From: a virus
Reading direction: 5' to 3' (one strand)
Virus record (IMG/VR): IMGVR_UViG_3300020227_000065
Location: 1 to 11,095 of that record
Length of the DNA stretch: 11,095 nt
Shown here: positions 1-11,095 of the stretch, one piece after another
Layout of the letters: each line of letters opens with the position of its first letter
Position numbering within the stretch: position 1 is the first letter of the stretch
Notes under the pieces: model-generated
The model's database searches: none
What the model was told of the DNA's origin: nothing
Seen by the model: only the letters and a program-made list of their open reading frames with translations
Made by a program: the position numbers and the translations under genes

Positions 1-70
1 GCCCCCCCCCCTCTAATTGTCCAAATCCCCATAATAGTCTGACAATTATGTGCGAGTGAAGGTGGCTAAA

Positions 71-190
71 GATTCAAAATGATTAGAATTATCTGACAAT
101 ACGATCTATGATTCTAAAAGATTTCTGATAATTCAAAATGATTTTTTAACTTGACAACATGGGTCAAATATGATTCTATTTTGATTCATA
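71..190. repeat. Degenerate ~60-bp direct duplication inside the ITR, with three conserved blocks per unit
   Basis: ATTCAAAATGATT occurs at 72-84 and 131-143. TGACAA occurs at 94-99 and 152-157. TATGATTCTA occurs at 107-116 and 169-178. The block order is the same in both units, offset by 58-62 bp. The structure is mirrored in ITR-R. Confidence 0.6.
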
Positions 191-210
191 AATGGGGCAT
201 GTTGTCAAGT
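149..210. repeat. 13-bp inverted repeat (ACTTGACAACATG / CATGTTGTCAAGT) with a 36-nt spacer at the inner edge of ITR-L
   Basis: Arms at 149-161 and 198-210 are perfectly complementary. The left arm contains a consensus TTGACA (151-156). T-rich sequence follows (212-222). Confidence 0.8.
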
Positions 211-259
211 ATGTTTTATTTTGTCATATTTTGTTCTCTATTTTGTTAAGTCTTTTCTA

Positions 260-288
260 TTGCAATTAGATTCTATTTGTATTAGAAT
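260..288 (+). promoter_or_regulatory. Sigma-A-like early promoter candidate, TTGCAA-17 nt-TAGAAT
   Basis: TTGCAA at 260-265, a 17-nt spacer, then TAGAAT at 283-288. T-rich TATTTTG repeats lie upstream. It is ~15 nt upstream of the strong SD (AAGAGGTGA, 304-312) of the first ORF. Confidence 0.5.
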
Positions 289-317
289 AGTAGATAGTTA
301 GAAAAGAGGTGAAACAT

Positions 318-428
318 ATGACTATTAAGTGTAGAGTTTGGAACTCACTCACTAAAAAAGAAAAGTTGAAAATGCTACAAATAGAAGTAGAATATAACAT
401 TTTCAACTATATAAAGAAAGTATCCTAA
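318..428 (+). CDS. Untracked 36-aa micro-ORF (MTIKCRVWNSLTKKEKLKMLQIEVEYNIFNYIKKVS), hypothetical early protein
   Basis: Hand-translated: ATG at 318, TAA at 426-428. It has the best SD in the window (AAGAGGTGA), 5 nt upstream of the ATG. It is the first ORF downstream of the promoter candidate. No recognisable motif. Confidence 0.4.
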   Translation: MTIKCRVWNSLTKKEKLKMLQIEVEYNIFNYIKKVS

Positions 429-460
429 AACATTATAACATAGAAAAGGGGATTTTATTC

Positions 461-1771: not shown

Positions 1772-3883
1772 ATGATAGATATTAAACAACTAAAAATAGA
1801 AAACTTACAATCTATCAATATACCCACTATTAGAACCAATAAGAAAATAGAATATCTGAATATAGAAAGTGCATTCGATATTGAAACAACTTCTATAAAA
1901 TTACAGGGTGATGAAAAAAGCGCATTTATGTATATATGGATGTTCGGCATAGGTTATGGGGAAAATGTTTACTATGGTAGAACATGGAAACAATTTATAG
2001 ATTTATGTAAAATCCTACAAAAAACATACGGACTAAATAAAAACAAAAGATTAGTAGTTTATGTTCATAACCTGGGATATGAATTTCAATTCATGCGGAA
2101 ATATTTTGAATGGGAAAATGTTTTTGCGGTTGGGGAACGAAAACCCATAAAAGCACTATGTACCTATGGAATAGAATTTAGGGATAGTTATATATTAAGT
2201 GGGTATTCACTAGCAAAAACAGGGGAAAACCTACAAAAACACAATATCCAAAAATTAACGGGTGATCTAGATTATTCATTAATAAGAACCCAACATACTA
2301 CATTAACAGATGAAGAAATGGCATATTGTAACAATGATATAGAAGTAGTAAACGCGTATATCAATGAACAAATAGAACAATACGGGGATATTACAAAAAT
2401 ACCCTTAACAAATACGGGAAGGGTTAGAAGTTATGTAAGAAATAATTGTTATTATACAAGCAAGAATCATAGAAAATCAAGTAAGGGAAAATATTACCGT
2501 TATCGTAAAATCATGAATGATCTAACCGTTACTAAAGATGAATATGTAAGGTTAAAACGTGCTTTTATGGGGGGATTTACACACGCAAACGCAAATTATA
2601 GCGGTCAATTACTGGAAGGGGTAACAAGTATAGATTTTACAAGTAGCTATCCTAGTGTTATGTTAGCGGAACAATATCCAATGAGTAGGGGAAAAGAAGT
2701 ACAAATAAAAAACATATCCCATTTAGAATGGTACTGTAATAAATTTTGTATGTTGTTTGATATAAAATTACACAATGTAAGAAGTAAAATTCCACAAGAA
2801 AACTACATAAGTGAAAGTAAGTGCTATGTTTTAAAAGGTGCGGAAATTAATAATGGTAGGGTGTATAGTGCGGAAGAACTAGCCATGACAATTACTAATG
2901 TAGATTATGATATTATCAAACAATGTTATGAATGGGACGGAATAAGTGTTACTAATGTAATACGATACCACAAGGGATATTTACCTAAACCCATTATAGA
3001 AAGTATTTTAAAATTATATCAAGATAAAACCGTATTAAAAGGGGTAGAAGGGTATGAAGTCGAATACCTACTATCTAAAGGAATGTTAAATAGCGTATAT
3101 GGTATGTGTGTAACGGATATTGTAAAAGATGAACATACCTACTTAGATGAATGGGGAAAAGAGCCAGCTAACATAGAAGAACAAATACAAAAATACAATG
3201 AAAGTAAAAATAGATTCTTATATTACCCTTGGGGTGTATGGGTTACGGCATATGCAAGAAAAAATTTATGGACCGGTATTTTAGCATTAGGGAATGATTA
3301 TGTTTATAGTGATACAGATTCTATTAAAATGTTGAATTATGAAAAACATTTAGATTATATTGGTTGGTATAATACTATGACGGTACAAAAATTACAAGAA
3401 ATGTGTAAACATTATAAAATAGATGATAAACTATTAGAACCAAAAACCAAAAAAGGTGAAAGGAAAATGATAGGGATATGGGATTATGAAGGAACATATT
3501 CCCGTTTTAAAACATTAGGGGCGAAAAGATACCTAGTACAAGAAGGTGATAAACTCTTTTTAACGGTTGCAGGCCTTTCTAAACAAAATGGGATAAATTA
3601 CATGATTGAACAGTGTAATGGTGATTATGAAAAAGTTTTTCATATGTTTAATGATGAATTATATGTACCTGCTGAACGTACGGGGAAAATGACACACACC
3701 TATATAGATGAAAAACAAGAATACAGAATAAAAGACTATCAAGGAAACGATTCTACTATTAGTGTAGAAAGTGGAATACATTTAGAACCATGTGACTTTA
3801 CATTAAGTATATCCAAGCAATACGGAAAATTTTTAGATCAATTTATGAAAGGTTATTTATTTAAGGGGGTACAATACCAATGA
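1772..3883 (+). CDS. Protein-primed family B DNA polymerase, 703 aa
   Basis: Motifs by residue:
- Exo I: FDIETT (D36/E38)
- Exo II: HNLGYEF (99-105)
- Exo III: YCNNDIEVV (Y185/D189)
- Pre-motif A: FMGGFT
- Motif A: DFTSSYPS (D288)
- Motif B: KGMLNSVYG (K436)
- Motif C: YSDTDS (D514/D516)
- KxY: GAKRYL
All are collinear with phi29 DNA polymerase. Confidence 0.97.
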   Translation: MIDIKQLKIENLQSINIPTIRTNKKIEYLNIESAFDIETTSIKLQGDEKSAFMYIWMFGIGYGENVYYGRTWKQFIDLCKILQKTYGLNKNKRLVVYVHNLGYEFQFMRKYFEWENVFAVGERKPIKALCTYGIEFRDSYILSGYSLAKTGENLQKHNIQKLTGDLDYSLIRTQHTTLTDEEMAYCNNDIEVVNAYINEQIEQYGDITKIPLTNTGRVRSYVRNNCYYTSKNHRKSSKGKYYRYRKIMNDLTVTKDEYVRLKRAFMGGFTHANANYSGQLLEGVTSIDFTSSYPSVMLAEQYPMSRGKEVQIKNISHLEWYCNKFCMLFDIKLHNVRSKIPQENYISESKCYVLKGAEINNGRVYSAEELAMTITNVDYDIIKQCYEWDGISVTNVIRYHKGYLPKPIIESILKLYQDKTVLKGVEGYEVEYLLSKGMLNSVYGMCVTDIVKDEHTYLDEWGKEPANIEEQIQKYNESKNRFLYYPWGVWVTAYARKNLWTGILALGNDYVYSDTDSIKMLNYEKHLDYIGWYNTMTVQKLQEMCKHYKIDDKLLEPKTKKGERKMIGIWDYEGTYSRFKTLGAKRYLVQEGDKLFLTVAGLSKQNGINYMIEQCNGDYEKVFHMFNDELYVPAERTGKMTHTYIDEKQEYRIKDYQGNDSTISVESGIHLEPCDFTLSISKQYGKFLDQFMKGYLFKGVQYQ

Positions 3884-4980
3884 GTAAAAAAGAACAAAAA
3901 CCTAAATATTATAGTTTGAACCGTATTAAGAAAAAAAATGCGGTTTACAATGTAATATTTGGGGAACGTTCAAATGGGAAAACATATGCGGTATTAAAAG
4001 AGGGGATAGAAAACTACTGGAAAACAGGGGGGCAAATAGCGGTAGTTAGAAGATGGAAAGAAGATATAACAGGGAAACGGGCGCAAGGAATTTTTAATGC
4101 ATTAAATGAAAATGATGAGATACGAAAAATAACGAATGATGAGTTTGAAGGGGTACACTATTACAACGGTAAATTTTATTTATGTACCTATAAAGATAAT
4201 AAAGTAGTTTACAATGATACGGATATTATAGGATATACCTTTGCATTATCGGATAATGAACACAATAAAAGTATTTCCTATCCTAGAGTGCAGATAATTC
4301 TATTTGATGAATTTTTAACGAAACATTTATATTTAAATGATGAATTTGTTTTATTTATGAATACGATTTCCACTATTGTAAGACAACGGACAGACGTAAA
4401 AATATATATGCTAGGGAATACCGTAAATAAATACTGCCCATATTTTCAAGAAATGGGATTGAACCATATATTGAAAATGGAACAAGGTACAATAGATGTT
4501 TATAAATATGGGGAAAGTGGTTTAACGGTTGCGGTGGAATACTGCGCAAGTACCCAACATAAAAAAGCGAATAACTTCTATTTTGCTTTTAACAATCCTA
4601 AATTAGAAATGATAACAGGGGGCGCATGGGAATTAAATATTTACCCCCATAGTCCTATTAAGTTTAAGCCTAAAGATATTAAACTAATTTACTTCATTCT
4701 ATTTAACGATAATACCTATCAATGCGAAATAGTGGTAAAAGGAAACATTACATTTACATTTATTCATATTAAAACTACAGAATTACAGAATACTGAAAAG
4801 GATTTAATCTATACACTAGAATATATTCCCAAAATAAATTATAATAGAAACATATTTAAGCCTATTAATAAGGTGCAAGAAAAAATTGTATGGTATTTTA
4901 AAACGGATAGAGTGTATTACCAAAATAATGAAGTAGGAGATGCAATCTCTAACTACTTAAAAATATGTAAGAGAGGATAG
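3880..4980 (+). CDS. phi29 gp16-like DNA encapsidation (packaging) ATPase, 366 aa
   Basis: YNVIFGERSNGKTYAVLK...GGQIAVVRRWKED matches gp16 LNFVIGARGIGKSYAMKV...GEQFIYVRRYKPE (Walker A). YPRVQIILFDEFL matches gp16 YPNVSTIVFDEFI (Walker B). ATGA overlap with the polymerase stop. Confidence 0.9.
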   Translation: MSKKEQKPKYYSLNRIKKKNAVYNVIFGERSNGKTYAVLKEGIENYWKTGGQIAVVRRWKEDITGKRAQGIFNALNENDEIRKITNDEFEGVHYYNGKFYLCTYKDNKVVYNDTDIIGYTFALSDNEHNKSISYPRVQIILFDEFLTKHLYLNDEFVLFMNTISTIVRQRTDVKIYMLGNTVNKYCPYFQEMGLNHILKMEQGTIDVYKYGESGLTVAVEYCASTQHKKANNFYFAFNNPKLEMITGGAWELNIYPHSPIKFKPKDIKLIYFILFNDNTYQCEIVVKGNITFTFIHIKTTELQNTEKDLIYTLEYIPKINYNRNIFKPINKVQEKIVWYFKTDRVYYQNNEVGDAISNYLKICKRG

Positions 4981-5172: not shown

Positions 5173-6213
5173 ATGTATAATTATAAAAATAAAAGGGATA
5201 ACATAAAACAGTTAAATAAATATATGTTATCCCGCACCCTTTCTATGTTTAACTATTCGGATTTACCTACTACATTACCTAGTGTAGAAATGGAAAAACA
5301 GTTACAGAAAAAAGGGTACACCTTTATTACTATGGTAGAGGGTTCATTGTATGCATTTCAGGGGGGTTTAGGTGGTGAACCCAACCCCTATGGACAACCA
5401 ACGAAAATAACCATTAATAACCCTTCATTAAACTATAGTGCAACATTAGATATAGAAAAAGATGGGGTATTAATTAAAAATGATGATATGATGATGGGGT
5501 TGTTTACACTATTTGATAAATATAATACCTTATTAATTGAAAATGAAATTACTATGTTTATAAATTCCTACAATACGAGGGTTCAAACGCTTTTAAGTGC
5601 AGGTGATGATTCTACCAAAGAAAGTGCGGAATTATACCTAAAGAAAGTAATAGAAGGGGAATTGGGTATCATAGGGGAAAACCAATTATTTGAGGATTTA
5701 AAAGTGCAAAAAGCGCAAGCAGACAATGCAAACGTAACAACTCAACTAATAGAGTTTAACCAATATTTGAAAGCAAGTCTATATAATGAAGTAGGCTTAA
5801 ATGCTAACTTTAATATGAAAAGGGAAAGACTAAATTCTAGTGAGGTGAAACTCAATACCGACAACCTATACCCCCTTATTCATAATATGCTAGAAAATCG
5901 AAAACAAGGCATAGAGAAACTAAATGAAATGTATGATTTACAAATAGGTGTGGAATTTGGTTCTATATGGAATTTTAGAAATATTAGTGATACAATAGAA
6001 GAACCTAAAGAAACCATAGACGAACAAGAAGAACCAACATTGGAAAATGAAGAACCTTCATTGGAACAAGAAGAACCTATTTTGGAAGATGAAGAACCAA
6101 CATTGGAAAATGAAGAACCAATTTCGGAAGATGAAGAACCAATTTCGGAAGATGAAGAACCAATTTCGGAAGATGAAAGTGCTACTACATTAGAGGAGGT
6201 GGAAAAAAGATGA
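5173..6213 (+). CDS. Portal / upper collar (connector) protein with an acidic C-terminal repeat tail, 346 aa
   Basis: The N-terminal pattern LSRTLSMFNYSDLPTTLPSVEMEKQLQKKGYTFIT resembles phi29 gp10 ([28 protein letters not shown]). Its size and its position next to the packaging ATPase fit a portal. The C-terminal 50 aa are (EEPxxE[NQD])7. Confidence 0.75.
   Translation: MYNYKNKRDNIKQLNKYMLSRTLSMFNYSDLPTTLPSVEMEKQLQKKGYTFITMVEGSLYAFQGGLGGEPNPYGQPTKITINNPSLNYSATLDIEKDGVLIKNDDMMMGLFTLFDKYNTLLIENEITMFINSYNTRVQTLLSAGDDSTKESAELYLKKVIEGELGIIGENQLFEDLKVQKAQADNANVTTQLIEFNQYLKASLYNEVGLNANFNMKRERLNSSEVKLNTDNLYPLIHNMLENRKQGIEKLNEMYDLQIGVEFGSIWNFRNISDTIEEPKETIDEQEEPTLENEEPSLEQEEPILEDEEPTLENEEPISEDEEPISEDEEPISEDESATTLEEVEKR
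6028..6174 (+). repeat. In-frame tandem repeat, 7 x 21 bp, encoding EEPTLEN/EEPSLEQ/EEPILED/EEPTLEN/EEPISED x3
   Basis: Units start at 6028, 6049, 6070, 6091, 6112, 6133 and 6154. Units 5-7 are identical at nucleotide level (63 bp) and units 1 and 4 are identical. A degenerate copy lies upstream (5998-6027, EEPKETIDEQ). Confidence 0.95.
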
Positions 6214-6749
6214 TGTTTAATGAGTGGATAAAAGATAATTCTTTATTTAGTGAAATTGATTCTATTAAACCTTTCCCCTTTATATCTCAACATGGGGCAA
6301 AAAACATAGATTTAGTTTATAAAATGAGTTATGGAAGTAAAACCATTCCCAAAAATGTGGAATGTTTAACGGTTAATGAAGTTGCTAACATAATTGTTGT
6401 TAATTATGGGGATAGCTGGAATAACAAATATAGCCTATTAAAAGATGAAATTTTATTAGGGGTGGAAGAAAAAACCGTATTAGATGAAACCGTAACAGAT
6501 GAATATTTAAGGACTATGAGTAGTAACCAAGAAAATAAAGTAAGTGCTTTTAATGATGATGAATTAAGTCCTAACGATTCTAGCAATGATTCCCTAAATG
6601 ATAAAAGCGATAAAGATGTAAACAGGAATAGGGAAATTACAAAAACAAGTTTGAACGCTATTAAAACACAATTAGAAATATTCAATTCCAATTTTATCAA
6701 TATAGTATGTAAAGATGTAAGTAAAATTGTTTCACTATCAATCTATTAA
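6210..6749 (+). CDS. Hypothetical 179-aa morphogenesis/virion protein with an acidic Ser/Asn/Asp-rich linker
   Basis: Strong SD GAGGAGGTGG (6192-6201) and an ATGA overlap with the portal stop. Low-complexity segment SPNDSSNDSLNDKSDKDVNRN. It occupies the slot after the portal where phi29 has the lower collar, but I recognise no motif. Confidence 0.55.
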   Translation: MMFNEWIKDNSLFSEIDSIKPFPFISQHGAKNIDLVYKMSYGSKTIPKNVECLTVNEVANIIVVNYGDSWNNKYSLLKDEILLGVEEKTVLDETVTDEYLRTMSSNQENKVSAFNDDELSPNDSSNDSLNDKSDKDVNRNREITKTSLNAIKTQLEIFNSNFINIVCKDVSKIVSLSIY

Positions 6750-6778
6750 AAGGGGAATGTAAAATGAAAATTACACAA
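6748..6778 (+). repeat. Duplicated translation-initiation region, copy 1 (SD + ATG + MKITQ codons)
   Basis: AAAAGGgGAATGTAAAATGAAAATTACACAA matches 7074-7104 at 30 of 31 positions. The 24 nt at 6755-6778 are identical to 7081-7104. Confidence 0.9.
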
Positions 6779-7033
6779 CACTTTTCTAACCTAATGAAGG
6801 AATTAGAAAGTGACTTTAAAAAAGCAAGTAGCTATAATGCCTATTCGAAATTTCATGAAATGGTTACTATTAGAGCAAAGGCTGGGGCATATAGAGAGAT
6901 ATTAAGACCGTTACTATTAGATCATACTAAACAACATTTAAACGGTGATGTAAAAAGGTTTAATGAAGAGTTGAAAGTTTTTCAGGAAAAATGTAGTAAT
7001 CAAATTAATAAAGTATTAAACGATGTAATCTAA
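6764..7033 (+). CDS. 89-aa predicted helical protein, candidate scaffolding protein
   Basis: It lies directly upstream of the major capsid gene, as phi29 gp7 (98 aa) lies upstream of gp8. It is small, charged and heptad-like in composition. The call rests on position and composition only. Confidence 0.4.
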   Translation: MKITQHFSNLMKELESDFKKASSYNAYSKFHEMVTIRAKAGAYREILRPLLLDHTKQHLNGDVKRFNEELKVFQEKCSNQINKVLNDVI

Positions 7034-7073
7034 TAAAAAACAACATTTTAATTTTAGACTATAAATTTATCTA

Positions 7074-7104
7074 AAAAGGAGAATGTAAAATGAAAATTAC
7101 ACAA
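7074..7104 (+). repeat. Duplicated translation-initiation region, copy 2 (SD + ATG + MKITQ codons)
   Basis: AAAAGGaGAATGTAAAATGAAAATTACACAA. See copy 1. Confidence 0.9.
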
Positions 7105-8250
7105 TTACACGAATTAGTAAACATGGCCACACAAGAAGTATTAGGAACAGAAGTCGTAGTAAATGAAGATTTAAGTAATATTGTAGATGTTGGTAATCAA
7201 ATTATTAATAGTGATAATGTTGATAACTATGTTAAAAAGCTAGTGAATCATATTGGAAAAGTAACATTTAAGAACCGCCTATATAGTGGGGGTGCGCCTA
7301 GTGTATTAATGGATTCATGGGAATATGGTTCAATCCTAGAAAAAGTTAGTGCGGATATGCCACACGCTACAGAAAATTCAAGTGCTATGCTTAAAAATGG
7401 GGAAGATTATTCACCCGATATTTTCTACCAACCTTCAGTTAGCGCACAGTTTTTCAATAGCAAAATCACCTTTGAAATTCCTTTATCATTTACGGAAAGA
7501 CAAGTAAAAGAATCATTCAGTAATGCGAATCAATTAAACGGATTTATTTCCATGCTTTCAACAAGTGTAGAAAATGCTATGACTGTGAAGCTAGATTCCC
7601 TTATTATGCGCACTATCAATAATATGACGGGAGAAACATTAAAAGCTGATCTAGATAATGAGGGTGAAATTGATTTAACTAGCACAGGGGTAAAAGCGGT
7701 AAACCTTCTAAAATTGTATAATGAAGAATATGGGGAAACATTAGAAAAAAATAAAGCACTATCAAATAGTAATTTTATTCGATACGCAACCTATATCATA
7801 GGGTTGTATAGTGATAGAATCTCTAAAATTAGTACCCTGTTCAATATTGGGGGAAAAGAACGTTTCACAAGTGGGGATTTTAAAAAGACTGTTTTATTAT
7901 CAGACTTTGAAAAAGCTAGTAATATTTTCTTGAAAGCAGATATTCAAAATCAAGAACAAATTACGTTGCCAACCCATGAAACCGTACCATATTGGCAAGG
8001 TAGCGGAAATTCATATAGCTTTGATGATGTTTCAAGTATTAATGTTAAAACTTCTACAGGTGCGGAAGTGAACGCATCGGGAATTTTGGGGGTTATGTTT
8101 GATAGGGAAGCTATAGGGGTTGCAAACCTAGATAGAAGGGTAACAACCAATTACAACCCTAAAGCAGAATTTTATACGAACTTCTATAAATTTGATGCTG
8201 GATATTATAACGATTTGAATGAAAACTTTGTAGTATTTTTCATAGGTTAA
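7090..8250 (+). CDS. Major capsid protein (phi29 gp8-like, HK97 fold expected), 386 aa
   Basis: The N-terminal pattern ...VGNQIINSDNVDNYVKKLVNHIGKV resembles gp8 ...[26 protein letters not shown]. It is the largest head-module ORF, lies downstream of the scaffold-like gene, and is followed by a strong terminator. Confidence 0.7.
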   Translation: MKITQLHELVNMATQEVLGTEVVVNEDLSNIVDVGNQIINSDNVDNYVKKLVNHIGKVTFKNRLYSGGAPSVLMDSWEYGSILEKVSADMPHATENSSAMLKNGEDYSPDIFYQPSVSAQFFNSKITFEIPLSFTERQVKESFSNANQLNGFISMLSTSVENAMTVKLDSLIMRTINNMTGETLKADLDNEGEIDLTSTGVKAVNLLKLYNEEYGETLEKNKALSNSNFIRYATYIIGLYSDRISKISTLFNIGGKERFTSGDFKKTVLLSDFEKASNIFLKADIQNQEQITLPTHETVPYWQGSGNSYSFDDVSSINVKTSTGAEVNASGILGVMFDREAIGVANLDRRVTTNYNPKAEFYTNFYKFDAGYYNDLNENFVVFFIG

Positions 8251-8743: not shown

Positions 8744-10204
8744 ATGGCTATTAAAAGTAGGCATTTTTATTGGGATATTGAAAATAGGCATAGGGTAGAA
8801 TCATTTTTTATTTATAATCATGGTAGTGGTACGGGTGCGGATAGAAACTATATGGAAGAATCATTTGATTATCAATTTACAGGGGAAAATACCTATACTA
8901 TTACAATTAATGCTAAGAGTGGTTATGGTTTTATTGAACCCCCGTTAATACGTCATTTTACAAGTGCGGATTCCACTGTGAGTGATTCATCTATACCAAT
9001 GGAAATTAATGAGGATAGAACACAAGCAACATTTACATTTACCAATGGAAACGGGAATTATTACGGGTTGGATAATGACTGGAAATTATATCTTTATAGT
9101 GAAGTAGAAGATTATTTAGGAATAGTTAAAACCTTTACCGCTTCATTACTAATGAATAATGTTACTTGTCATTTTAAAAATGGAACGGAAACCATTACCC
9201 TAAATTATGGGGAAAGTAAAGAAATTCCCGTAGGTAATTATAATATTGAAATAGTAGTAAATAATGGTTTTAAAATTGTTAGTATTACCGCAACCCATGA
9301 AGAAATTGGTCCTAATCCAAGTGGGGAAATGTATTTTTCTATATCAGATGATGGGAAGAAAGCAACGGGGAATAGTGATTTTAATGAAGGGGATACCCTA
9401 ACTATTAGGGGTGTAACGGAAATTGTAGAGGGTGTGCCTAGTGTAGTAGGTACGTTTAACCATTTATATTTAATAGATAGTACCAATTTACGAAAATTAA
9501 CGAATCATATTACAGTAATGGAAGCTAAAGAAGAAAGAGATACCATTCAACAGTATATGATAAATGTATTAAGATTCCCATTCAATATAAATGAAACCCA
9601 TATAATAGGTAATAATGGGGTTATATTAGGGGCGAAAATATTTGATAAATTAGAAGTATTAGAAATAGATATAGATCAACTAACTATAGATATGGGTAAA
9701 ATAGAAATACCGTTAAAATATAATAATACCTTTGATTATCTAAATACAAGTTGTATTTTACATTTACCCTACTCAGAAAATATAGAGTTAGAACCTAGTT
9801 ATATTATAGGTGAAACTATTTTTATAGAATATATTGTAAGTCTATATGATGGGGAAGGAACAATAAATATTAGTAGTAGCAAGATAGATGATGTTTTTCT
9901 ATCCCAACCTATCAAAATAGGTACGGTTATACCTTATTTTAACCATAATCAAAAAGGATACACACAATCCCAGCAAACATTGTTAGGTGTATATAATAAG
10001 TTAAAACAGGCATATGTAGAAGTAATTAGGAACATACCATATGAAAATGATAGTCCATTTAATGATGGGGTGATAACTCAATCTAAATTAAAAAATGAAA
10101 AGGGTTATGTTAAAGTGAATAATATAATACTAGAAAATAAAGCAACTTCACAAGAAAGAAATGAAATTATTAGAATGTTGGAAAGTGGGGTATTTATTAA
10201 ATGA
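8744..10204 (+). CDS. 486-aa tail protein: beta-rich N-terminal half (candidate receptor-binding modules) plus a conserved-looking C-terminal tail-tube/knob-like half
   Basis: SD AGGGGG lies 7 nt upstream. It is the only large ORF between the capsid and lysis genes. The N-terminal ~240 aa contain two similar beta-strand-like modules (YTITINAKSGYGFIEPP and YNIEIVVNNGFKIVSITAT). The C-terminal half has LHLPYSENIELEPSYIIGETIFIEYIVSLYDGEGTINI, a pattern I associate with phage tail hub/knob barrels. Confidence 0.5.
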   Translation: MAIKSRHFYWDIENRHRVESFFIYNHGSGTGADRNYMEESFDYQFTGENTYTITINAKSGYGFIEPPLIRHFTSADSTVSDSSIPMEINEDRTQATFTFTNGNGNYYGLDNDWKLYLYSEVEDYLGIVKTFTASLLMNNVTCHFKNGTETITLNYGESKEIPVGNYNIEIVVNNGFKIVSITATHEEIGPNPSGEMYFSISDDGKKATGNSDFNEGDTLTIRGVTEIVEGVPSVVGTFNHLYLIDSTNLRKLTNHITVMEAKEERDTIQQYMINVLRFPFNINETHIIGNNGVILGAKIFDKLEVLEIDIDQLTIDMGKIEIPLKYNNTFDYLNTSCILHLPYSENIELEPSYIIGETIFIEYIVSLYDGEGTINISSSKIDDVFLSQPIKIGTVIPYFNHNQKGYTQSQQTLLGVYNKLKQAYVEVIRNIPYENDSPFNDGVITQSKLKNEKGYVKVNNIILENKATSQERNEIIRMLESGVFIK

Positions 10205-10878
10205 TGTACTATGACAAAAGAAACCGTAACAACATTAAAAAACTAGCAAATAACACTAGAAAAAAGGCTTTGCAATGGTATGAATTTTGTGTAAAGAATA
10301 ACATTAATATTTTAGTATATGAAACAATTAGGGACGAAAAAACGCAACGGGAGAACGTGCAGAAAGGTGTTTCTCAAACCATGAAAAGTTACCATTTAGT
10401 AGGACAAGCACTGGATTTTGTACCCGTTAATTCTAAAGGTGAAACCCTATGGAATGGGTATGGTGCTAGTGATATAAAGAAAGCTATTGAACATGCCAAA
10501 AAACTAGGCTTTGAATGGGGTGGCGATTGGAAAGGTTTCATAGATAAACCCCACCTACAATATAATTATAATGGTTATGGTTCGGATTCATTCGATAAAC
10601 CTTCTAATAATGAACAAATAACAATGGATATTGAAAACCTAGTAAAACGTACTATTAGAGGTGATTTTGGTAACGGTGAAGAACGTAAAAGAAAATTAGG
10701 TTCTAATTATCAAAGAGTACAAGATATTATTAATGGTAAAACTTATAATAATTCAGTTAATATTGACGATTTAGTGAAGCGTACTATTAGAGGTGAATTT
10801 GGCAACGGTGCTGAACGTAAAAAGAAACTAGGAAAACATTACAATGAAGTGCAAAAAAGAATAAATAAAATGTATTAA
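10201..10878 (+). CDS. Endolysin: peptidase M15 (VanY/L-Ala-D-Glu peptidase-like, LAS fold) catalytic domain + two CW_7 (Cpl-7-type) cell-wall-binding repeats
   Basis: Zn ligand pattern SYH65LVGQALD72 (H-x6-D), EWGGDW and DKPH118LQ. Two repeats carry LVKRTIRG[DE]FGNG.ERK.KLG..Y..VQ..IN, matching the CW_7 consensus. No signal peptide. ATGA overlap with the upstream gene. Confidence 0.9.
   Translation: MMYYDKRNRNNIKKLANNTRKKALQWYEFCVKNNINILVYETIRDEKTQRENVQKGVSQTMKSYHLVGQALDFVPVNSKGETLWNGYGASDIKKAIEHAKKLGFEWGGDWKGFIDKPHLQYNYNGYGSDSFDKPSNNEQITMDIENLVKRTIRGDFGNGEERKRKLGSNYQRVQDIINGKTYNNSVNIDDLVKRTIRGEFGNGAERKKKLGKHYNEVQKRINKMY
10627..10872 (+). repeat. Two CW_7 repeat units (10627-10737 and 10762-10872) within the endolysin
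   Basis: aa 143-179 and aa 188-224 are highly similar. The nucleotide strings are also close (…CGTACTATTAGAGGTGA[TA]TTTGG[TC]AACGGTG…GAACGTAAAA…). Confidence 0.85.
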
Positions 10879-10884
10879 TAACTT

Positions 10885-11095
10885 TACTTGACAACATGCC
10901 CCATTTATGAATCAAAATAGAATCATATTTGACCCATGTTGTCAAGTTAAAAAATCATTTTGAATTATCAGAAATCTTTTAGAATCATAGATCGTATTGT
11001 CAGATAATTCTAATCATTTTGAATCTTTAGCCACCTTCACTCGCACATAATTGTCAGACTATTATGGGGATTTGGACAATTAGAGGGGGGGGGGC
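10885..11095. repeat. Right inverted terminal repeat (ITR-R), 211 bp, ending GGGGGGGGGGC-3'
   Basis: Exact reverse complement of 1-211. It begins 6 nt after the endolysin stop codon (10876-10878). Confidence 0.97.
10886..10947. repeat. Mirror copy of the 13-bp-arm inverted repeat at the inner edge of ITR-R, immediately after the last gene
   Basis: Arms at 10886-10898 and 10935-10947. It starts 8 nt after the endolysin stop and is the only potential RNA hairpin downstream of the + strand gene train. Confidence 0.8.

What the first reader, a model, noticed from the sequence alone, without database searches (positions are those of the whole stretch)
6028..6174. A recently expanded 7 x 21-bp tandem repeat gives the portal a ~50-residue polyacidic, proline-punctuated C-terminal tail
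The portal ends in (EEPxxE[NQD])7. The last three units are identical at nucleotide level and units 1 and 4 are identical. That indicates recent slippage or recombination, and probably copy-number polymorphism.

As I recall, the C-terminal residues of phi29-type connectors lie at the wide, capsid-interior end. Twelve such tails would put several hundred negative charges inside the head, next to the DNA.

Possible roles are a built-in scaffold or assembly-nucleation handle, a DNA-mimic or charge brake controlling packaging and ejection, or an ejected anti-host peptide. I do not know of this feature in described connectors.
Basis: partly seen in the sequence, partly recalled or inferred. Interest (0 to 1): 0.65.

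Follow-up and report, generated by a model that had tools for sequence, protein, structure and literature searches.

The report
Polyacidic repeat tail on phage portal
The portal protein of this complete 11-kb phi29-like phage ends in a disordered, strongly negative tail built from seven 21-bp repeats, and hundreds of relatives (cultured Astrithrvirus phages included) carry equally acidic but unrelated tails, so it is a conserved, fast-evolving and apparently undescribed feature of unknown function inside the capsid.

Summary
Window 6028-6174 is a 7 x 21-bp in-frame array (EEPxxE[NQD]). Units 1 and 4 are identical, and so are units 5-7. It sits at the 3' end of a phi29-type connector/portal gene (5173-6213).

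It is not an assembly artefact. A second assembly carries the identical array, and k-mer depth fits three identical units.

It is not peculiar to this phage. In 99 cluster representatives with tails of at least 30 aa, none has net charge of zero or above (median -23; the most acidic of all 106 tails surveyed is -136). Six cultured Astrithrvirus-like phages have tails of 89-156 aa with net charge -17 to -30. phi29 has only about 25 weakly acidic residues.

The tail sequences are unrelated between lineages. 41 of 48 tail-coding regions hold tandem repeats, and 39 of those 41 have a period divisible by three. Portals with identical domains differ in copy number (7 versus 3 units).

The tail replaces the short disordered "crown", which faces the capsid interior. 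AlphaFold gives pLDDT below 50 there. Per virion the tails total about -384 charges.

Function is inferred. My best guess is a DNA-like polyanionic brush that helps start shell assembly on the portal, because no scaffolding gene is recognisable. A role in managing packaged DNA is a close rival.

Verdict: new variant of a known kind, moderate interest.

The parts
5173..6213 (+). Portal / upper collar connector gene (346 aa, pI 4.3, net charge -38)
   Evidence: ORF list. Pfam PF05352 and PHROG 2038. A profile matches PDB phi29, GA1 and phiCPV4 portals at E 1e-16 to 1e-25. Foldseek top hits are phi29 connectors.
5173..5985 (+). Folded portal domain (aa 1-271), ending just after the family-invariant FGSxW motif (S264, W266)
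   Evidence: The AF2 model is mostly confident for aa 1-271, with dips in the loops at about 161-190 and 211-230. 135 residues have pLDDT of 90 or more. Invariant columns come from alignment A1.
5986..6027 (+). Start of the disordered tail, including the degenerate proto-unit EEPKETIDEQ (5998-6027)
   Evidence: Register listing. pLDDT is below 50 from residue 272. The repeat finder family D1 extends the 21-nt register back to 5980 at 65% identity.
6028..6174 (+). Seven in-frame 21-bp units encoding (EEPxxE[NQD])7. Units 1 and 4 are identical and units 5-7 are identical.
   Evidence: E-E-P and E6 are invariant. Proline codons vary synonymously (CCA/CCT). All other variation is in codons 4, 5 and 7.
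6175..6213 (+). Non-repeat C-terminal end ESATTLEEVEKR plus the stop codon. It overlaps the ribosome-binding site and start of the next gene.
   Evidence: GGAGGTGG lies at 6195-6202, 7 nt before the ATG at 6210. The stop TGA (6211-6213) overlaps that ATG. In 27 of 66 relatives the next gene starts no later than 3 nt after the first base of the portal stop codon; in the loci printed the offset ranged from -5 to +7. The compost strain lacks one A of the run 6203-6208 and ends ...EEVEKDDV.
6210..6749 (+). Conserved 179-aa acidic protein immediately downstream. It is a probable lower-collar (gp11-like) protein rather than a scaffold. It matters for the argument that no scaffolding gene is recognisable.
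   Evidence: A single ~180-aa acidic gene is the only ORF between portal and MCP in most of the 44 relatives examined. In the AF2 model, the N-terminal helices and the helix at 161-170 are confident. The middle (aa 85-145, including two short strands) is low-confidence. No PDB, Pfam or PHROG hit. The assignment is inferred from topology and from the phi29 gene order 10 then 11.

Best explanation
**What it is (shown).** The window is a complete 11,095-bp Astrithrvirus-like (phi29-related) phage genome. Its portal keeps the phi29 connector fold. The short disordered C-terminal 'crown', which faces the capsid interior, is replaced by a tail of about 75-80 residues. The tail is predicted to be intrinsically disordered and is strongly polyanionic.

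The tail is encoded by in-frame 21-bp tandem repeats. Such repeats grow, shrink and homogenise quickly, presumably by replication slippage or unequal recombination.

Across the whole clade, selection preserves net negative charge, depletion of hydrophobic and aromatic residues (and, more weakly, of arginine), and disorder. It does not preserve sequence, unit type or length.

**How it most likely works (inferred).** Twelve tails form a DNA-like polyanionic brush around the inner mouth of the portal channel.

In the empty procapsid the brush would offer a multivalent, non-specific ('fuzzy') electrostatic handle. That handle would help capsid protein, or an unrecognised scaffold, start assembling on the portal. 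In phi29 this task falls to the scaffold-connector complex. These 11-kb phages have no recognisable scaffolding gene.

When DNA enters, it would out-compete and repel the tails. The tails would then remain as a non-sticky, DNA-excluding cushion over the channel.
For: **Identity and topology**
- Domain and fold assignment.
- The C-terminus of this fold is the capsid-facing crown, disordered in phi29, GA1 and phiCPV4 (PMC8703570, PMC10035634, PMC2582624).

**Disorder**
- pLDDT is below 50 with no secondary structure for residues 272-346.
- The charge-hydropathy calculation puts the tail on the disordered side.
- A proline occurs every 7 residues.

**Selection on charge**
- 112 homologues have a median tail of 73 aa and net charge -19.
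- 106 representatives of clusters at 50% identity or less have a median tail of 92 aa and net charge -23. None of the 99 tails of at least 30 aa has net charge of zero or above.
- In tails, E is 3.0x and D 2.3x as frequent as in the domain, while aromatic residues, Met and Cys fall to 0.05-0.23x.
- A null model using domain composition never reproduces this pattern in 2000 trials.
- Six cultured relatives have tails with net charge -17 to -30.

**Repeat turnover**
- 41 of 48 tail DNAs contain tandem repeats. 39 of those 41 have periods that are multiples of three. Many show 96-100% matches, and the unit sequences are unrelated between lineages.
- 84 of 126 portal pairs with at least 93% identical domains differ in tail length. 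One pair is a clean 7 versus 3 units.
- The sister strain has a rearranged array.

**Assembly-handle inference**
- In most relatives, the only ORF found between portal and MCP is a ~180-aa protein whose predicted topology recalls the phi29 lower collar (description of gp11 in PMC6542822).
- The 89-aa basic ORF in front of the MCP gene is absent from the 95%-identical strain.
- phi29 capsid protein without functional scaffold forms isometric T=3 shells that lack a connector. The phi29 scaffold binds DNA (PMC11476376).
- A connector-scaffold complex nucleates phi29 assembly (PMC5529062).
- The MCP has a family-conserved basic stretch at aa 49-63.
- A Gram-negative subclade carries a conserved amphipathic helix at the tip of the acidic linker, which looks like a tethered binding module.
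Against: - There is no experimental or structural evidence for any partner.
- The MCP (net -16) and the ~180-aa protein (net -9) are themselves acidic overall.
- Tail length ranges from about 20 to 338 aa, which argues against any precise stoichiometric role.
- One relative with a 99% identical domain has a tail cut to 27 aa. This may be a real dispensable-tail variant or a short-contig artefact.
- The window lacks the terminal helix motif seen in the Gram-negative subclade.
- The lower-collar assignment of the 179-aa protein has no significant database support. A scaffold could still be hidden among the unassigned small proteins.
- Twelve tails are few compared with the roughly 180 subunits of a T=3 shell.
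- The one paper that studied a relative in depth (Pourcel et al. 2024, phage Phanie) was not available to me. It may already discuss this region.
Confidence: 0.42

Rival explanations
1. The tail is a DNA-management brush only. It has no role in assembly. It acts after packaging as a polyanionic cushion. It would keep packaged DNA from jamming or sticking at the inner mouth of the channel, help position the last-packaged end, or add local repulsion that aids ejection.
For: - Negative charge is universal and arginine is moderately depleted (lysine only slightly).
- The crown of phi29-type portals is said to contact the packaged genome (PMC8703570).
- Portal and tail channels are generally electronegative to avoid DNA sticking (PMC6702177).
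- The P22 portal has a long C-terminal extension that is unstructured in the procapsid and organises only in the DNA-filled virion (PMC12005531).
Against: - phi29, GA1 and phiCPV4 manage larger genomes with a crown of only 22-25 residues (PMC8703570).
- The total tail charge (-384) is under 2% of the genome's phosphate charge.
- Tail length shows no relation to genome or contig length (Spearman rho -0.01, n=29; a crude test).
- This reading does not explain the conserved terminal helix module in the Gram-negative subclade.
Confidence: 0.28
2. The tail is a nearly neutral low-complexity appendage. The free C-terminus inside the capsid tolerates slippage-generated repeats. The only constraint is that the tail must not bind DNA or aggregate, so acidic hydrophilic units survive. 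The tail does nothing positive.
For: - Length, unit type and sequence vary enormously, and turnover is fast even between portals with identical domains.
- Some representatives have tails of only about 20-30 aa.
- There is a possible truncated variant, P0103.
- phi29-type portals function with a minimal crown.
Against: - Tails are not merely non-basic but strongly acidic: D+E make up about 35% of the tail against 13% of the domain.
- No net-neutral tail occurs among 99 diverged representatives.
- Non-repetitive tails, such as the 156-aa tail of astrithr, are just as acidic.
- Long tails persist in genomes of only about 11 kb, where coding space is at a premium.
- One subclade conserves a terminal helix motif.
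Confidence: 0.17
3. The array is an assembly artefact: a collapsed or over-expanded repeat in a short-read metagenome assembly.
For: - Logan contigs (k=31) of every run break inside the array.
- The three identical units (63 bp) cannot be resolved by short k-mers.
- No raw reads were available.
Against: - An independent JGI assembly has the identical 7-unit array.
- K-mer depth in X1 (1.46x and 1.84x flank) fits three identical units and not two or four.
- Units 1-4 differ from each other, so they are uniquely placeable.
- Comparable arrays occur in dozens of independent relatives.
Confidence: 0.04
4. The repeat is selected at the nucleic-acid level, for example as a packaging signal, a pRNA-like RNA, a promoter, or binding sites for a protein. 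The acidic peptide would be a by-product.
For: The array is purine-rich and lies just upstream of a translationally coupled gene. The pRNA of this clade is unidentified (no Rfam hit).
Against: - Relatives share charge but not nucleotide sequence or unit length (periods 6-75 nt).
- 39 of 41 periods are multiples of three.
- Within the array, the synonymous CCA/CCT change is tolerated while E-E-P and E6 are invariant.
- No Rfam family matches anywhere in the window.
Confidence: 0.03

Closest known systems
Crown (C-terminal ~22-25 residues) of phi29-type portals: phi29 gp10, GA1 gp10, phiCPV4 gp17
   Same: Same fold and same position: the C-terminus directly after the last wing strand, facing the capsid interior. 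It is disordered in solved structures (PMC8703570).
   Different: The crown is 22-25 residues and only weakly acidic in phi29. Here it is 75-80 residues, net charge -32, proline-punctuated, and built from recent tandem repeats. In relatives it reaches 338 residues, and the most acidic tail has net charge -136.
Portals of cultured Astrithrvirus-like phages (Salmonella astrithr/Astrid/assan, Acinetobacter Phanie, Pectobacterium DU_PP_III, Vibrio K58 g2, Shigella vB_SHGBLB0004)
   Same: The portal domain is 46-58% identical. The genome is the same ~11-kb type with the same gene order. The tails are long and acidic: 89-156 aa, net charge -17 to -30.
   Different: Their tails are mostly non-repetitive or use other units. 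Most of them end in a conserved amphipathic helix motif (LSDEDKQA..ELL..ELE type) that the window lacks; the Vibrio tail ends in an EP repeat instead. Their hosts are Gram-negative. The window's lysin (M15 plus CW_7 repeats) and 30% GC point to a Gram-positive host.
P22 portal C-terminal barrel (residues 601-725)
   Same: A long C-terminal portal extension that projects into the capsid. It is unstructured in the procapsid and sits among scaffold and ejection proteins (PMC12005531).
   Different: The P22 barrel folds into a helical coiled-coil tube in the virion. The tail here has a proline every 7 residues and no predicted helix, so a barrel is not expected. No sequence relation was found.
Negatively charged disordered segments inside procapsids. 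One is the P22 scaffolding protein N-loop. From memory, the acidic internal peptides of the T4 head are another.
   Same: These are acidic, flexible polypeptide inside a shell that will be filled with DNA. The P22 N-loop's charge is implicated in DNA-driven scaffold release (PMC12005531).
   Different: Those segments belong to scaffold or core proteins that leave or are cleaved. Here the polyanion is permanently tethered to the portal, in 12 copies.
Acidic disordered C-terminal tails of single-stranded DNA-binding proteins (E. coli SSB, T7 gp2.5). This comparison is from my own knowledge.
   Same: A polyanionic disordered tail that can mimic nucleic acid and competes with DNA for basic surfaces.
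   Different: The protein family, location and partners are unrelated. This is an analogy of mechanism only.

Membership tests
phi29-type connector / portal (Pfam PF05352, PHROG 2038) | Sequence-profile match above the curated threshold | tested here: met
   PF05352 at 63.8 bits against a cut-off of 25.6, aa 12-262. PHROG 2038 at E 1.5e-40. The profile matches PDB 7pv2, 1h5w, 1fou and 7pv4 at E 7e-25 to 3e-16.
phi29-type connector / portal (Pfam PF05352, PHROG 2038) | Portal fold (clip, stem and wing, with the C-terminal crown facing the capsid) | tested here: met
   The AF2 model (pTM 0.61, domain mostly pLDDT above 80) has Foldseek top hits 6qyj, 1h5w, 1ijg, 7pv2 and 7pv4 at probability 1.00 and E 1e-10 to 3e-15.
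phi29-type connector / portal (Pfam PF05352, PHROG 2038) | Genomic context of a protein-primed, gp16-type packaging phage | tested here: met
   PolB PF03175, gp16-like ATPase PF05894 and phi29-like MCP PF25622 are on the same strand. The genome has 211-bp perfect inverted terminal repeats.
phi29-type connector / portal (Pfam PF05352, PHROG 2038) | Dodecameric ring at a unique capsid vertex | not testable with these tools
   Only a monomer could be modelled. Dodecamer stoichiometry is assumed from phi29, GA1 and phiCPV4.
Astrithrvirus-like mini-podoviruses | Linear genome of about 10-12 kb with terminal repeats and the gene order pol, ATPase, small protein, connector, ~180-aa protein, MCP, ~145-aa protein, large tail protein, lysin | tested here: met
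   Compared with NC_048862, OX458330, MF979562, OZ195715 and PV654518.
Astrithrvirus-like mini-podoviruses | Nucleotide-level relatedness to genus members (genus demarcation) | tested here: not met
   Megablast of the whole window against 50,697 phage records finds only a 677-nt stretch at 74% in DU_PP_III. Portal identity is 46-58%. The window is related at clade level but is not a member of the genus.
Intrinsically disordered polyanionic region | Low predicted order, low hydropathy, high net charge, no conserved sequence but conserved composition | tested here: met
   pLDDT below 50 with no secondary structure. Mean hydropathy 0.32 and mean net charge 0.43, on the disordered side. Composition is conserved while sequences are unrelated. 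Disorder is predicted, not measured.
Hypervariable coding tandem repeat (VNTR-like) | Identical adjacent units and copy-number differences between otherwise near-identical genomes | tested here: inconclusive
   Identical units are confirmed. Copy-number difference is shown cleanly in a relative (L013 versus P0039, 7 versus 3 units with a 100% identical domain). In the window's own lineage, the 95% strain has a different unit order and higher repeat k-mer depth. Its full array could not be read from k=31 contigs.
P22-like helical portal barrel | Long C-terminal alpha-helix forming a coiled-coil tube | tested here: not met
   No helix is predicted after residue 267, and a proline occurs every 7 residues.

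The most novel reading that the evidence does not exclude
In the smallest known tailed phages the portal carries its own substitute for a scaffolding protein. A tethered, DNA-mimicking polyanionic tail nucleates T=3 shell assembly on the portal. The incoming genome then displaces it. Its repeat number acts as a rapidly adjustable setting. That would be a new way of ensuring one portal per capsid without a dedicated scaffold gene.
Probability: 0.15. Interest if true: 0.8.

Novelty: new variant of a known kind. Interest (0 to 1): 0.52.

Why it matters
Portals are the assembly nucleus and the DNA gate of all tailed phages and herpesviruses. Their capsid-facing crown is usually a small helical or short disordered element.

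Here a whole, very large and mostly uncultured clade of about 11-kb phi29-related phages has replaced it with a long polyanionic disordered tail. The representatives search found 1,721 protein clusters at E of 0.001 or below, and the acidic tail held in all 106 of the 150 best-scoring clusters that could be scored. The tail is conserved in charge but not in sequence, and it evolves by repeat turnover.

Putting several hundred to over a thousand fixed negative charges next to tightly packed DNA is counter-intuitive. It occurs in genomes with no spare coding capacity, which argues for a function.

These phages have cultured members (Salmonella, Acinetobacter, Pectobacterium), so the question can be tested directly by truncation or charge-neutralisation mutants and by cryo-EM. 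The outcome bears on how minimal tailed phages incorporate a portal without a recognisable scaffold.

Practically, the array is a hypervariable marker for strain typing. It is also a predictable break-point for short-read assemblies of these phages.

Tried and rejected
1. **Close cultured relative by DNA.** None found.
2. **Rfam scan** at E of 1 or below for a pRNA or any RNA element in or near the repeat. No hit.
3. **The apparent 67-nt 'joint' in run X5 (6037 to 6105).** I first read it as a 3-unit deletion. I rejected that because the contig ends one base later, inside the array. It is a mapping effect of a different first unit, EEPIPED.
4. **The 89-aa basic ORF (6764-7033) as a phi29 gp7-like scaffold and natural partner of an acidic tail.** Rejected as a general explanation. 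It is absent from the 95%-identical strain, and no comparable ORF was found in most of the 44 relatives examined.
5. **The 179-aa protein as a scaffold.** AF2 topology and synteny favour a lower-collar-like protein. Foldseek and a PDB profile search gave nothing significant, so this stays an inference.
6. **'Filler or pressure-tuning' idea (tail length compensating genome length).** No correlation (rho -0.01, n=29). The test is crude because contig completeness and phylogenetic non-independence were ignored.
7. **A conserved short motif at the very C-terminus (E/D-E-K-K-V).** In the window, and on inspection of several relatives, these codons overlap the downstream gene's ribosome-binding site and start. 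SD-like sequence scored in 26 of 66 loci, so this is suggestive only.
8. **Literature.** I found no paper describing acidic portal tails. Several key papers were not held: Pourcel et al. 2024 (Phanie), Fu et al. 2010, Fu & Prevelige 2009 and Cai et al. 2008. I therefore cannot exclude prior description.
9. **Dodecamer or portal-MCP complex prediction.** Not possible with the single-chain tool.
Full report
**1. What is in the sequence**

The window is a complete linear phage genome of 11,095 bp. It has perfect 211-bp inverted terminal repeats and about 30% GC. All large genes lie on the + strand:

- a protein-primed family-B DNA polymerase (1772-3883);
- a phi29 gp16-type packaging ATPase (3880-4980);
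- a small holin-like protein;
- the connector/portal (5173-6213);
- a 179-aa protein;
- an 89-aa ORF;
- a phi29-like major capsid protein (7090-8250);
- two tail proteins;
- an M15 plus CW_7 endolysin.

The gene order matches the ~11-kb Astrithrvirus-like phages: Salmonella phage astrithr, Acinetobacter phage Phanie, Pectobacterium phage DU_PP_III, a Vibrio phage and a Shigella phage. Nucleotide similarity to them is essentially absent. Portal identity is 46-58%.

**2.

TRF reports a 21-nt period at 6028-6177 with 7.1 copies and no indels. In the portal frame the units read EEPTLEN, EEPSLEQ, EEPILED, EEPTLEN, EEPISED, EEPISED, EEPISED. Units 1 and 4 are identical in nucleotides, and so are units 5-7.

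E-E-P and the sixth-position E never change. The proline codon varies synonymously. All other variation falls in codons 4, 5 and 7. A degenerate EEPKETIDEQ precedes the array, and ESATTLEEVEKR follows it. Those last codons contain the Shine-Dalgarno sequence (GGAGGTGG, 6195-6202) and the overlapping start of the next gene.

From residue 272 the tail has 35 acidic and 3 basic residues and 8 prolines. That gives -32 per chain and -384 per dodecamer.

**3. Not an artefact**

The same protein is encoded on an independent JGI contig. That contig differs from the window by two mismatches over 8.7 kb and has the identical array.

Logan's k=31 contigs break inside the array, as expected for a 63-bp perfect repeat. 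In the run holding 95% of the window's sampled words, the two repeat unitigs have 1.46x and 1.84x the flank depth. Expected values are:

| Identical units | Unitig 1 | Unitig 2 |
|---|---|---|
| Two | 0.33 | 1.00 |
| Three | 1.33 | 2.00 |
| Four | 2.33 | 3.00 |
| Observed | 1.46 | 1.84 |

. Raw reads were not available, so this check is indirect but consistent.

**4. Where the tail sits**

The AlphaFold model built on 51 homologues is confident over most of residues 1-271. It has pLDDT below 50 and no secondary structure for 272-346. Foldseek returns the phi29 connector in prohead, virion and emptied states, then GA1 and phiCPV4 portals, at E 1e-10 to 3e-15. A sequence profile aligns to phi29 residues 29-283.

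In these portals the C-terminal 22-25 residues are called the crown. They are capsid-facing, disordered, and said to contact inner capsid proteins and packaged DNA (PMC8703570). The C-terminal wide end lies within the capsid (PMC10035634, PMC2582624). The tail is an enlarged, polyacidic version of the crown.

**5. The decisive finding: the tail is a clade-wide trait**

A word-indexed search found 2,920 homologues. An exhaustive search of representatives at 50% identity found 1,721 clusters at E of 0.001 or below. I split each protein after the invariant FGSxW motif.

- *Nearer homologues (112).* Median tail is 73 aa with net charge -19.
- *Diverged representatives (106).* Median tail is 92 aa with net charge -23. 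None of the 99 tails of at least 30 aa is neutral or positive. The extremes reach 338 aa and -136.
- *Composition.* Relative to the folded domain, tails are enriched 3.0x in Glu and 2.3x in Asp, and mildly in Thr, Pro and Val. They are depleted 2- to 20-fold in Leu, Met, Phe, Tyr, Trp and Cys, and nearly 2-fold in Arg. Random tails of domain composition never reproduce the all-negative pattern.
- *Cultured phages.* Tails are 89-156 aa with net charge -17 to -30. phi29 has only about 25 weakly acidic residues.

The accessible literature does not mention this. That includes a 2024 review of phi29-like phages covering Astrithrvirus. The Phanie paper was not held, so prior description cannot be excluded.

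**6. How the tails evolve**

Tail sequences are unrelated between lineages. Examples of units are EPTNEDTEPIE, VEPEPEQ, DETLDETP, ESGTEEQ, TDQP and NESGEETL.

At DNA level, 41 of 48 complete tail-coding regions from IMG/VR relatives contain tandem repeats. 39 of those 41 have periods that are multiples of three, and many show 96-100% matches. Among 126 portal pairs whose domains are at least 93% identical, 84 differ in tail length. L013 and P0039 have 100% identical domains and 7 versus 3 copies of a 21-nt unit.

The window's own lineage shows the same turnover. A compost strain is about 95% identical in the flanks. Its array starts with EEPIPED and ends EEPTLEQ-EEPILED-ESATTLEEVEKDDV. Its two repeat unitigs run at 2.4-4.6x and 1.6-3.1x the flank depth in four runs. 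That suggests more identical units than in the window.

One caveat applies: most of these comparisons rest on short-read assemblies.

**7. What selection sees**

Unit sequence, period and length are free. Net negative charge, hydrophilicity and disorder are universal. So the selected property is at the protein level and is compositional.

This argues against a nucleic-acid-level role. The period-of-three rule, the synonymous proline codons and the absence of any Rfam match agree.

It also argues against pure neutrality. A constraint of 'just do not stick to DNA' would give neutral tails, not 35% Asp plus Glu in genomes with no spare coding capacity.

**8. Mechanism (inferred)**

Between portal and capsid gene, most relatives have only a ~180-aa acidic protein. 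Its predicted structure has a small N-terminal helical domain, a long helix, a poorly predicted middle with two short strands, and a C-terminal helix. This resembles the published description of the phi29 lower collar gp11 (PMC6542822) and fits the phi29 gene order 10 then 11. No database search supports the assignment.

The 89-aa basic ORF in front of the capsid gene sits in a 326-nt insertion flanked by 31-nt direct repeats. It is missing from the 95%-identical strain. The conserved core therefore shows no recognisable scaffolding gene.

In phi29, a connector-scaffold complex nucleates assembly (PMC5529062). The phi29 scaffold binds DNA, and capsid protein without functional scaffold makes isometric T=3 shells that lack a connector (PMC11476376).

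My best explanation is that twelve polyanionic tails act as a DNA-like, multivalent handle. The handle would make the shell start on the portal, and the incoming DNA would then displace it. Afterwards the tails would remain as a non-sticky cushion at the channel mouth. Two weak leads point the same way:

- a family-conserved basic stretch in the capsid protein, aa 49-63;
- a conserved amphipathic helix at the tip of the acidic linker in the Gram-negative subclade.

Against this: no partner is shown, the candidate partners are acidic overall, tail length is extremely variable, and a possibly tail-truncated relative exists.

A purely post-packaging DNA-management role is nearly as likely. A near-neutral appendage cannot be excluded. 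An ejected peptide is unlikely, because the tail is part of the portal chain and no protease gene is recognisable. Tail length does not track genome or contig length.

**9. Verdict**

The feature is real and recently remodelled. It belongs to a large family-wide pattern that appears undescribed. It is best filed as a new variant of a known structure (the portal crown or C-terminal extension), not a new kind of system.

The descriptive part is secure. The function is open but directly testable in cultured relatives.

Noticed in passing
window 1-211 and 10885-11095: Perfect 211-bp inverted terminal repeats, so the window is a complete linear genome of 11,095 bp. [quoted passage not shown] Each ITR contains a 28-31 nt hairpin-type inverted repeat (149-210; 10883-10950) and 26-nt direct repeats spaced 59 nt apart (59-84, 118-143).
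   Followed up: partly
window 6748-7104: A 31-nt direct repeat (ribosome-binding site, ATG and the codons for MKITQ) at 6748-6778 and 7074-7104 flanks a 326-nt segment. The segment carries an 89-aa basic ORF (6764-7033, pI 9.3) just upstream of the capsid gene. The 95%-identical strain L089 and most relatives lack this segment, so it looks like a strain-specific insertion or duplication.
   Followed up: partly
window 8757-9125: 123 codons near the N-terminus of the 486-aa tail protein are absent from the 95%-identical strain L089, whose protein is 361 aa. This is an in-frame domain-sized indel in a probable receptor-binding or tail protein.
   Followed up: no
window 6210-6749: A 179-aa acidic protein follows the portal in nearly all of the 44 relatives examined. 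It has no Pfam, PHROG, PDB or Foldseek match. The predicted helical ends and a Ser/Asn/Asp-rich low-confidence middle recall the phi29 lower collar (gp11) topology. If that is right, the clade has no recognisable scaffolding gene.
   Followed up: partly
window 10201-10878: The endolysin combines Peptidase_M15_4 with two CW_7 cell-wall-binding repeats (DNA repeat 10628-10866). Together with 30% GC this suggests a Gram-positive host. All cultured relatives infect Gram-negative bacteria.
   Followed up: no
loci L002, L003, L004, L006, L008 and many P-numbered portals (C-terminal 30-45 aa): A subclade (the Salmonella, Acinetobacter, Pectobacterium and Shigella phages among the cultured ones) ends the acidic linker with a conserved amphipathic helix motif, ...LSDEDKQAxxELLxELExKE. 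It occurs in 36 of 218 tails by a strict pattern. It looks like a tethered binding module. The window lacks it.
   Followed up: partly
window 1-460 and whole window: No Rfam match at E of 1 or below anywhere, so no recognisable phi29-type pRNA. The left end (212-460) is non-coding and is a place to look for a divergent packaging RNA.
   Followed up: no
window 7234-7278 (MCP aa 49-63): A family-conserved basic stretch, KKLVNHIGKVTFKNR, lies in an otherwise acidic capsid protein. The mean net charge across 66 relatives is +2.6 per 15 aa. It is a possible contact for an acidic partner.
   Followed up: no
proteins P0078 and P0103: These portals have 99% identical domains, but one has a 111-aa tail and the other only 27 aa. 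This is either a natural tail-truncated variant or an artefact of a 1.1-kb contig.
   Followed up: no
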